A stretch of DNA of 64,000 nucleotides from Podarcis muralis (Eukaryota): assembly GCF_964188315.1 (NCBI RefSeq), contig NC_135655.1, positions 82,646,001-82,710,000 of the forward strand, in the 5' to 3' direction. Positions 35,688 to 36,478 of this stretch are shown piece by piece (position 1 is the first letter of the stretch; each line of letters starts with the position of its first letter). The notes beneath the pieces were generated by a model. That model searched no databases and had not been told where the DNA came from. It saw only the letters and a program-made list of their open reading frames with translations. A program made the translations under genes and the position numbers.

Positions 35688-36478
35688 TGTCAGGGCTGCC
35701 TCAGGTCCCAGCTCACAAGAGACCAACGCCAAGTCCAGTTTATATACAAAGATGTTTATTGAAGTGCATTGTACGCTCCACAGCCAAGGCGCGCAGCCCC
35801 ACGTCTGTTACGCTTAGACCGCTGAAGTCCCCTCTGAGTCAGTCCCGCCTCTGCACCACTTTAAGAGGCTTGTGCTGCTCCACCTCTTCCTTTCTTTCCT
35901 TTTCCGCAAGGTCTTCCTGCCCCCTGGGGTTTCGCCCCTCCTGGATTCCCCTGACGCGGAATCCCCAGACAGCTCTTCCCCCCTCCTGCGTGCTTTGGGA
36001 CCTGGCTCCTCCTCCGGGCTCCCTGTACTTCCGCGCGCCTCCACATTTGAACTTGGCGCGCGTTCGCAACCTCTAACCTTCCTCTTGACAGTTACACTAC
36101 TCCCTGCATTACTCCCCTCCCCTTCCGGGAGGATGTCTTGCTCCGATCTCCCCTCCCTCTCTGCTTTCGGACCTGCTTCCCCTGTCACTCTGGAATCTCC
36201 ACCCCCTTCTCTGCGCTCTGGCGGAGAAGCCGGTCCCGACTCCCAGCTCCCAGCTCCCACTCTGGGTTCCCCCGCTGGTCCCCTGCTCCTGACGAGTCCC
36301 CCCTGTGACTCCCCTTGGCCTGACCACAGGCGCCCCCTTCTGGGAATCCTCCGATTCACTTGAAAGACTCATGGAAACCCTCAAGTCATTGTCATCCTCT
36401 TCCTCGCTGCCCTGGGATTCTTCCCCCTCGCTCTCCGTCTCCTCCCTCACCTGTGCCTCTGTCCCTGAACCCCTGACA
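35688..36478 (-). mobile_element. Solo LTR (Ty3/Gypsy- or BEL-like), 791 bp
   Basis: Termini TGTCAGGG..CCCTGACA; 5-bp TSD GCATG at 35683-35687 and 36479-36483; AATAAA on the minus strand near 35755. Confidence 0.9.

What the first reader, a model, noticed from the sequence alone, without database searches (positions are those of the whole stretch)
35688..36478. Solo LTR whose U3 is essentially one protein-like ORF (acidic N-half, Arg/Lys-rich C-end)
Seen: from LTR nt 2 the minus strand reads VRGSGTEAQVREETESEGEESQGSEEEDDND..SLSSESEDSQ. A 7-bp tandem (CTCCCAG at 36240-36260) shifts the frame; removing one unit fuses the two track ORFs into 218 codons ending ..SPEEEPGPKARRR..RKRKERKRWSSTSLLKWCRGG..AV* at 35814, i.e. 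83% of the LTR. It contains CK2-like S-x-x-E runs, SP motifs and an NLS-like basic cluster. Known: some retroviruses encode accessory proteins reaching into U3 (HIV Nef, MMTV Sag). Inference: the parent retrotransposon carries a U3-encoded accessory protein translated from the internal region into the 3' LTR; I know of no description of this for squamate LTR elements. Caveat: a T-poor strand yields few stops by chance.
Basis: partly seen in the sequence, partly recalled or inferred. Interest (0 to 1): 0.7.

Follow-up and report, generated by a model that had tools for sequence, protein, structure and literature searches.

The report
Retrotransposon promoter doubles as integrase tail
This is the leftover end-repeat of a lizard jumping gene whose whole promoter region also codes, under purifying selection, for the last 218 amino acids of the element's Pol polyprotein, a tail that likely helps the integrase hold on to chromatin; this copy is frameshifted.

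Summary
Observation confirmed; interpretation corrected. Window 35688-36478 is a solo LTR (5-bp target duplication) of a Tf1/sushi-type chromovirus (Ty3/gypsy) in a lacertid lizard. This copy carries an extra 7-bp unit and its frame stops after 122 codons; 27 of the 30 best-matching copies are open for 218 codons. The frame is not a separate Nef/Sag-like gene: in natural full-length sister copies one 1549-1550-codon Pol frame (PR-RT-RH-IN-SH3-chromodomain-acidic linker) runs through the polypurine tract, across all of U3, and stops just inside R. Between subfamilies 65-73% identical in DNA, dN/dS is 0.20-0.24 (other sense frames 1.0-1.7) and A-B indels keep the frame. Two other chromovirus lineages in this genome do the same with 102-117 codons. 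The tail is predicted disordered, acidic at the start, basic at the end. Best guess for function: an integrase tail for nuclear and chromatin tethering, like the LTR-encoded CR motif of plant CRM elements. Support is indirect: chromosome-end enrichment of the A and D subfamilies, a weak H2A-H2B prediction, nucleosome-binding-like motifs in sister families. Not found described for vertebrates in nine literature searches; Repbase and Butler 2001 could not be read. New variant of a known kind.

The parts
35688..36478 (-). Solo LTR, 791 bp, subfamily A of a Tf1/sushi-type chromovirus; element sense is the minus strand
   Evidence: TG...CA ends, 97-98% identity to the 40 scored copies; orientation from PPT and PBS next to sister LTRs
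35683..35687 (+). Target-site duplication GCATG, left
36479..36483 (+). Target-site duplication GCATG, right
35836..36478 (-). U3 (predicted border), coding along its whole length for the Pol C-terminal tail
   Evidence: border inferred from self-primer and TATA-like box; coding
36261..36477 (-). 5' piece of the tail frame (acidic, Ser-rich start), from LTR base 2 to the break
36240..36260 (-). 7-bp tandem; one unit more than most sister copies; the frame is broken here in this copy (also in L002)
35814..36239 (-). 3' piece of the tail frame, ending in the basic cluster and the stop at 35816-35814
   Evidence: matches the C-terminus of Pol in L031
35880..35918 (-). Arg/Lys-rich cluster followed by WS and LLxWC; candidate nuclear-import or nucleosome-binding motif (inferred)
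   Evidence: invariant RKRWS, L, WC in four divergent tails; R, L, W invariant across 11 sequences including families E/F
35859..35865 (-). TATA-like box CTTAAAG, about 30 bases before the predicted start; its bases are also the Leu-Lys codons of LLKW
   Evidence: sequence; function inferred
35825..35835 (-). Predicted transcript 5' end = 11-base self-primer, complementary to the PBS behind the 5' LTR of full-length copies
35755..35760 (-). AATAAA polyadenylation signal in R
35688..35835 (-). R and U5 (R/U5 border not mapped)
   Evidence: inferred from self-primer and AATAAA

Best explanation
The U3 frame is the last 218 residues of the element's Pol polyprotein, read in frame from the integrase and chromodomain through the polypurine tract into the 3' LTR, and it likely stays on the integrase as a disordered tail whose basic end carries the integration complex to the nucleus and tethers it to nucleosomes. 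Shown: the single frame, its selection, the domain order, the frame break in this solo copy. Inferred: transcription starts at the self-primer in the 5' LTR, so only the 3' LTR's U3 is on the RNA and translated; Pol is made by a -1 shift at GGGAAAC; the protease leaves the tail on integrase; the tail binds chromatin and contributes to where the element inserts. The window's solo LTR has lost the upstream frame and cannot make Pol.
For: One open frame PR-RT-RH-IN-SH3-(chromo)-linker-U3 in L031, L160, L159, L149 and in 16 of 150 subfamily-D rows (1566-1567 aa; five of these share one flank). dN/dS in U3: A-B 0.225-0.237, A-D 0.196, E-F 0.21-0.26 in 5 of 5 pairs computed, of 9 F loci; A-B and E-F indels inside the frame are multiples of 3, and the one 1-bp A-B indel lies just behind the stop. 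Same layout in family E (102 codons), F (109), G (117). AlphaFold: chromodomain confident, U3 part pLDDT under 50 except a short helix over the WS..LLxWC motif. Chromodomain lacks the HP1 cage Trp (Arg instead) yet is highly conserved (dN/dS 0.04), as in type II chromodomains (PMC5006619 passages). A and D hits lie within 1 Mb of chromosome ends in 31 of 115 and 42 of 107 merged non-C20 sites against 2.6% of the sequence and 2 of 115 for family G; 39 terminal D LTRs parsed fall in 30 flank groups, so duplication is not the whole cause. Tail end (46 aa) with lizard H2A-H2B: weak support, score 0.40, best of 3 controls 0.02; the mark was reached by 51 of 78 solved and 2 of 108 mismatched pairs, but at 0.60 or under by only 5 of the 78 and by all 4 mismatches that passed (of 180); runs agree in at least 26% of contacts, partner pLDDT at least 41. 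U3-coded tails of family G and of Anolis Pols end in RRSARLKA and RRSARIAA, each 7 of 8 identical to the acidic-patch motifs of HMGN and yeast Dot5 as printed in PMC13347269. Precedent: the LTR-coded CR motif of plant CRM elements is a targeting domain (PMC3059260).
Against: No protein evidence and no test of cleavage. The A tail has no Pfam, PDB or HMGN-type match; its LLxW codons coincide with the TATA-like box, so that conservation may be promoter constraint. Family E/F shares the basic-LLxW end but is not end-enriched (3 of 102; older copies). End enrichment rests on the top 150 hits per query and may reflect retention or the chromodomain, not the tail. The complex controls were not matched for basic composition, and similar arginine-rich complexes are solved, so the pass may be likeness. 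13 of 30 subfamily-B copies are frameshifted in the tail, the 779-bp form at four different flanks (the query was itself a broken copy), and the window's extra unit recurs in L002 without shared diagnostic substitutions: recurrent slippage, or elements with a cut tail that still moved. A non-codon-aware A-D alignment gives gaps of 3, 3, 4 and 17 (sum 27), so frame keeping there depends on alignment.
Confidence: 0.55

Rival explanations
1. The tail is translated with Pol but cut off by the element's protease (or started at the ATG in the PPT, or from a spliced RNA) and works as a free accessory protein, for instance an acidic histone-chaperone-like or anti-silencing factor. This is the nearest form of the first reader's idea.
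For: A 140-residue acidic linker separates chromodomain and U3 part and could hold a cleavage site. A/B/D have an in-frame ATG two codons before the LTR. The PBS starts with GTAAGT or GTAAGC, which looks like a splice donor.
Against: No stop between pol and the tail. The ATG is absent in E and G. No splice joint from that donor in four RNA runs, but depth over the internal region was mostly under 10, so this is weak.
Confidence: 0.2
2. The tail stays on integrase but serves only nuclear import or solubility (basic cluster as NLS, the rest a charged spacer) and has no part in target choice.
For: KRK, KARRR and RKRKERKR clusters are kept in all four tails compared. C-terminal bipartite NLS of yeast Ty1 integrase (recalled, not checked). 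E/F has the basic end without chromosome-end bias.
Against: 91 of 218 columns are invariant across four divergent tails, in blocks well outside the basic clusters, more than an NLS needs; most fungal-type relatives manage with tails of 4-31 residues.
Confidence: 0.19
3. The open frame is a by-product of a G/A-rich, T-poor promoter, and Pol merely runs on until the first stop.
For: Only 78 T in 657 bases; 3.7% of shuffles have some sense frame open. Short run-ons past the PPT look common in relatives.
Against: dN/dS about 0.2 in the Pol frame only, in two unrelated LTR families, with synonymous sites near saturation; frame-keeping indels; 0 of 2000 column shuffles as low.
Confidence: 0.03
4. 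The selected product is an antisense protein in the mirror frame (the plus-strand 181-aa frame at 35818-36363).
For: Mirror frame dN/dS 0.31-0.33, and long plus-strand frames exist in A, B and D.
Against: It shares third codon positions with the Pol frame, so low dN/dS is expected as a shadow; it is higher than the sense value, holds a stop in subfamily A and has no start context.
Confidence: 0.03

Closest known systems
Tf1/sushi chromoviruses (Ty3/gypsy; sushi-ichi, V-clade)
   Same: PR-RT-RH-IN order, chromodomain behind integrase, CCHC Gag, gag-pol overlap in -1 relation with GGGAAAC, 11-base self-priming match, 5-bp TSD, LTR ends fitting the Sushi pattern TGTYANR..CNTNACA (PMC3601003 passages)
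   Different: 360 residues follow the chromodomain, 218 of them in the LTR; most relatives found end 4-31 residues after it. The chromodomain has lost cage residues.
Plant CRM group A centromeric chromoviruses (CR motif / CHDCR)
   Same: Pol coding region extends past the PPT into the 3' LTR and encodes a C-terminal integrase segment proposed as targeting domain (PMC3059260, PMC3605345, PMC6317226; passages read)
   Different: CRM replaced the chromodomain and primes with tRNA-Met; here a divergent chromodomain is kept before the PPT, priming is self-priming, the host is a vertebrate, the tail fills all of U3, and copies gather at both ends of chromosomes. No sequence link was tested: a convergent layout, not membership.
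HIV/SIV Nef, MMTV Sag (recalled)
   Same: Protein coded in U3 of the 3' LTR, dual use of promoter DNA
   Different: Those are separate genes of retroviruses with their own start; this is the end of pol in an env-less Ty3/gypsy element.
HMGN / Dot5 / Dsup acidic-patch motif and viral arginine anchors (PMC13347269, PMC9040877; passages read)
   Same: Short Arg-rich motif in a disordered region; near-exact match at the end of the U3-coded tails of family G and Anolis Pols
   Different: The finding's own family lacks that motif; its end is a basic cluster plus WS..LLxWC, with only weak predicted H2A-H2B binding.

Membership tests
Tf1/sushi chromovirus | Ty3/gypsy domain order PR-RT-RH-IN | tested here: met
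   Pfam on L031 Pol
Tf1/sushi chromovirus | Chromodomain at the integrase C-terminus | tested here: met
   Pfam Chromo E 0.0037, under the cut-off; HP1 chains E about 0.01; model pLDDT about 90 and Foldseek to CDYL2/HP1, best E 0.002; divergent, cage Trp lost
Tf1/sushi chromovirus | Self-priming: 5' end of RNA complementary to PBS | tested here: met
   11-bp duplex in the minimum-energy and centroid fold (whole-fold z only -1.24); like match seen in family E; start site itself not mapped
Tf1/sushi chromovirus | Gag-Pol by -1 frameshift; CCHC in Gag | tested here: met
   overlapping frames in -1 relation with GGGAAAC; zf-CCHC; shift itself not measured
Tf1/sushi chromovirus | Groups with named sushi-ichi/Tf1 in an RT tree | not tested
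Plant CRM group A | Pol extends into 3' LTR | tested here: met
Plant CRM group A | CR motif in place of the chromodomain | tested here: not met
   chromodomain retained upstream of the PPT; tail has no Pfam hit; no CR-motif profile was run
Plant CRM group A | tRNA-Met primer binding site | tested here: not met
   PBS is complementary to the LTR itself
Plant CRM group A | Centromeric accumulation | tested here: inconclusive
   D sites at 23 of 38 chromosome ends, more than one per chromosome; centromeres not located
Nef/Sag-type U3 accessory gene | Separate ORF with its own start | tested here: not met
   continuous with pol; PPT ATG not conserved
Nef/Sag-type U3 accessory gene | Own spliced or subgenomic mRNA | tested here: inconclusive
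   no such joint, low depth
HMGN-like acidic-patch motif | RRSARLSA-like octapeptide | tested here: not met
   absent from A/B/D tails; 7 of 8 match in family G and Anolis tails

The most novel reading that the evidence does not exclude
Lizard chromoviruses have turned their U3 promoter into a code for integrase targeting tails that mimic host chromatin-binding motifs (an HMGN-like acidic-patch motif in family G and Anolis, acidic FxGF motifs like LEDGF/TND ligands behind the chromodomain, a basic LLxW motif in this family), growing as the chromodomain lost its methyl-lysine cage, and these tails set family-specific insertion landscapes such as the subtelomeric bias of subfamilies A and D: a vertebrate counterpart of the plant centromeric CR motif.
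Probability: 0.3. Interest if true: 0.75.

Novelty: new variant of a known kind. Interest (0 to 1): 0.52.

Why it matters
How vertebrate Ty3/gypsy elements choose insertion sites is essentially untested. Here young, abundant families in one genome differ both in a short, testable C-terminal motif and in chromosomal distribution, which makes the question approachable with peptides and population data. It also means thousands of solo LTR candidates in this genome (2498 first-look candidates) carry a 200-codon, selection-shaped frame that gene finders already annotate as host 'hypothetical proteins' (P0009, P0013) and that could be captured as exons. An entire U3 serving both as promoter and as coding sequence is a clear case of overlapping constraint.

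Tried and rejected
Pfam and PDB sequence search of the U3 part: nothing; the L34 and ZBP1 rows at E 0.1-0.3 are composition matches. ESM Atlas with P0002 residues 1080-1498: only Chromo clusters at 0.77-0.79, a lead only. AlphaFold of P0014: low confidence apart from the chromodomain; not informative. Tails of P0016 and Anolis P0029 found nothing in G000, so their LTR borders are inferred from protein only. The look-up of sequencing runs: no RNA holder listed. RNA reads laid on an A and a D element: low depth, mostly related copies, LTR reads on both strands, no start site or splice joint; no conclusion. Length of the ORF alone as evidence: rejected as weak. A purely centromeric reading of the end bias: not supported, since both ends of chromosomes are hit. 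A likeness of the basic-W end to the CENP-C motif is recalled only and was not tested. The careful tree did not finish; the quick tree was used. Earlier findings by sequence and by place: none.

Full report
1. The observation. Window 35688-36478 is 791 bp, begins TGTCAG, ends CTGACA and has GCATG on both sides: a solo LTR. A DNA search of G000 gave 2498 candidates, of which 40 were scored, all 97-100% identical and mostly 784 bp. Of the 30 fetched, 27 are open on the minus strand from LTR base 2 to a stop at codon 218; the window copy, L002 and L016 are broken. The window copy has one more unit of the 7-mer at 36240-36260 than most copies and stops after 122 codons. Length alone is weak evidence: 60 of 5000 dinucleotide shuffles leave this frame open, 185 leave some sense frame open.

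2. The parent element. Sister LTRs flank internal regions with a G-rich PPT before one LTR and GTAAGTCCCCTCT behind the other, which fixes the sense as the window's minus strand. L031 holds a natural copy with a gag (broken in that copy) and one 1549-codon frame in which Pfam finds protease, RT, RNase H, integrase zinc finger and core, and the Tf2-type SH3 domain; a weak Chromo hit follows (E 0.0037 on the L032 frame), backed by HP1 matches, a confident model and Foldseek. The frame goes on through a 140-residue acidic linker, through the PPT (read GGFEGGMD) and into the LTR at residue 1332, ending at the LTR stop. L160 (1550 aa) shows the same. gag overlaps pol in the -1 relation with GGGAAAC. 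The PBS pairs over 11 bases with the LTR sequence at window 35835-35825, the self-priming mark of Tf1/sushi elements (bioRxiv 2022.12.06.519325, passages). A TATA-like box lies about 30 bases upstream and AATAAA downstream. So the frame covers all of predicted U3 and ends about 20 bases into R. UniRef names identical proteins as Podarcis muralis, so the host is a lacertid lizard.

3. Selection. Subfamily B (73% identical) is open to codon 216-217 in 17 of 30 copies, and frameshifted in 13, the query being itself a broken copy. Subfamily D (65% identical) stops at codon 209 in 19 of 20 loci, one not parsed; 16 of 150 D rows lie in 1566-1567-codon frames. For three A-B pairs dN/dS is 0.225-0.237 (95% bootstrap 0.14-0.35), against 1.0-1.7 in the other sense frames; third positions carry twice the changes; gaps in the frame are 3 bases and the single 1-base gap falls just after the stop. 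Column shuffles never reach it (0 of 2000). A versus D gives 0.196 for U3, 0.37 for the linker and 0.03-0.06 for the enzyme domains and chromodomain, so the tail is selected but far looser than the core. The mirror antisense frame gives 0.31-0.33 and has a stop in A; I read it as a shadow. 91 of 218 columns are invariant across four divergent tails.

4. How general. Searches with the tail found only Podarcis and unnamed proteins. Family E (L149, 403-bp LTR pair) runs Pol 102 codons into its LTR and also stops just behind its self-primer; its relative F has 109 codons, dN/dS 0.21-0.26 in the 5 of 9 loci that passed the length filter, and a 21-bp indel. Family G runs 117 codons. Anolis Pols P0029/P0030 have 120-residue tails with a PPT-like junction, judged from protein only. 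Among the 101 proteins examined the chromodomain was located in 82; most unnamed, fungal-type ones end 4-31 residues after it. A quick tree of 43 RT-IN sequences joins A/B/D with E/F (support 100) and all squamate rows at 90, which is not firm.

5. Mechanism. Shown: the frame is the C-terminus of Pol and is selected as protein. Inferred: it remains on integrase. The U3 part is predicted disordered, with a short helix on the WS..LLxWC motif; it is acidic at the start and basic at the end. Three indirect lines point to chromatin tethering. (a) Sister tails end in near-exact HMGN/Dot5 acidic-patch motifs and the linkers carry FxGF motifs like TND ligands. (b) A and D hits are enriched within 1 Mb of chromosome ends (31 of 115 and 42 of 107, against 2 of 115 for G and 2.6% expected; still significant when collapsed to one per end), and 39 terminal D LTRs fall in 30 flank groups. 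(c) The last 46 residues with lizard H2A-H2B scored 0.40 against a best control of 0.02, a weak pass (51 of 78 solved and 2 of 108 mismatched pairs reach the mark; at 0.60 or under only 5 of 78 solved and all 4 passing mismatches of 180; contact agreement at least 26%, partner pLDDT at least 41). Against: E/F shares the basic-LLxW end without end bias (3 of 102); LLxW overlaps the TATA-like box; controls were not basic; frameshifted tails occur at several independent sites; RNA data were too thin to test a subgenomic RNA. I put 0.55 on the tether, 0.2 on a released accessory protein, 0.19 on import or spacer only, and 0.06 on non-coding or antisense readings; the statement that the frame is the Pol C-terminus is near certain.

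6. Against what is known. It meets the tested marks of Tf1/sushi chromoviruses. Pol running into the 3' LTR is described for plant CRM group A, where the LTR-coded CR motif is the proposed targeting domain (PMC3059260, PMC3605345, PMC6317226; passages read); this element works like that in layout but is not a member (chromodomain kept, self-priming). It is not a Nef/Sag-type separate gene (those recalled). Nine full-text searches listed no description for a vertebrate element; I saw listings for most, passages of PMC3601003, PMC5006619, PMC11011659, PMC9040877, PMC13347269 and PMC9987994, and the abstract of PMC7264820. Butler et al. 2001 is not held, Repbase, Dfam and GyDB could not be searched, and no supplements were read, so an existing annotation of Pol overlapping the LTR cannot be excluded. 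One earlier scan note (e1-9969525) mentions a U3 gene in a fungal gypsy element; untested here.

7. Verdict. Real and selected; ordinary in class, unusual in anatomy. New variant of a known kind; interest 0.52.

Noticed in passing
L161-L172 (family G); proteins P0028, P0029, P0030: Another young chromovirus family runs Pol 117 codons into its LTR and ends in RRSARLKA; Anolis Pols end in RRSARIAA. Both match acidic-patch motifs of HMGN and Dot5 at 7 of 8 positions. This may be a cleaner lead than the finding itself. Family G keeps a canonical-looking chromodomain and is dispersed.
   Followed up: partly
L031 Pol residues 1203-1218; P0014, P0016, P0018-P0020, P0075, P0076: An acidic or Ser/Thr stretch plus FxGF follows the chromodomain in all 15 long-tailed A/D/E-type proteins examined and in two chromodomain-less Anolis Pols; it resembles TND-interacting motifs that bind LEDGF/HRP2 (PMC9987994 passages). 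In family A it lies in the internal linker, not in U3.
   Followed up: partly
G000 chromosome ends and C20: A and D copies are enriched within 1 Mb of chromosome ends; all four families are over-represented on the 30-Mb C20 (A 28 of 143, D 16 of 123, G 12 of 127, E/F 35 of 137 merged sites), likely a heterochromatic W-type chromosome (inferred).
   Followed up: partly
L012 1-1500, L036 1-500, L100 2374-2848: Elements abut or lie next to TTAGGG arrays.
   Followed up: no
L033 3-4085: A Ty1/copia element with a 1360-codon open frame is nested in the gag of an A element, which itself sits in ERV-like pol sequence.
   Followed up: no
L036: An element with a B-type 5' LTR and an A-type 3' LTR, probably a recombinant or nested pair.
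   Followed up: no
window 33872-35688: The window is an olfactory-receptor-like gene cluster; the LTR lies about 0.9 kb upstream of, and points toward, the receptor frame at 33872-34822, with a LINE-like fragment (35137-35520, identified from recall) between them.
   Followed up: no
L230, L231, L213, L242: D LTRs are inserted inside other LTRs of the same group near chromosome ends.
   Followed up: no
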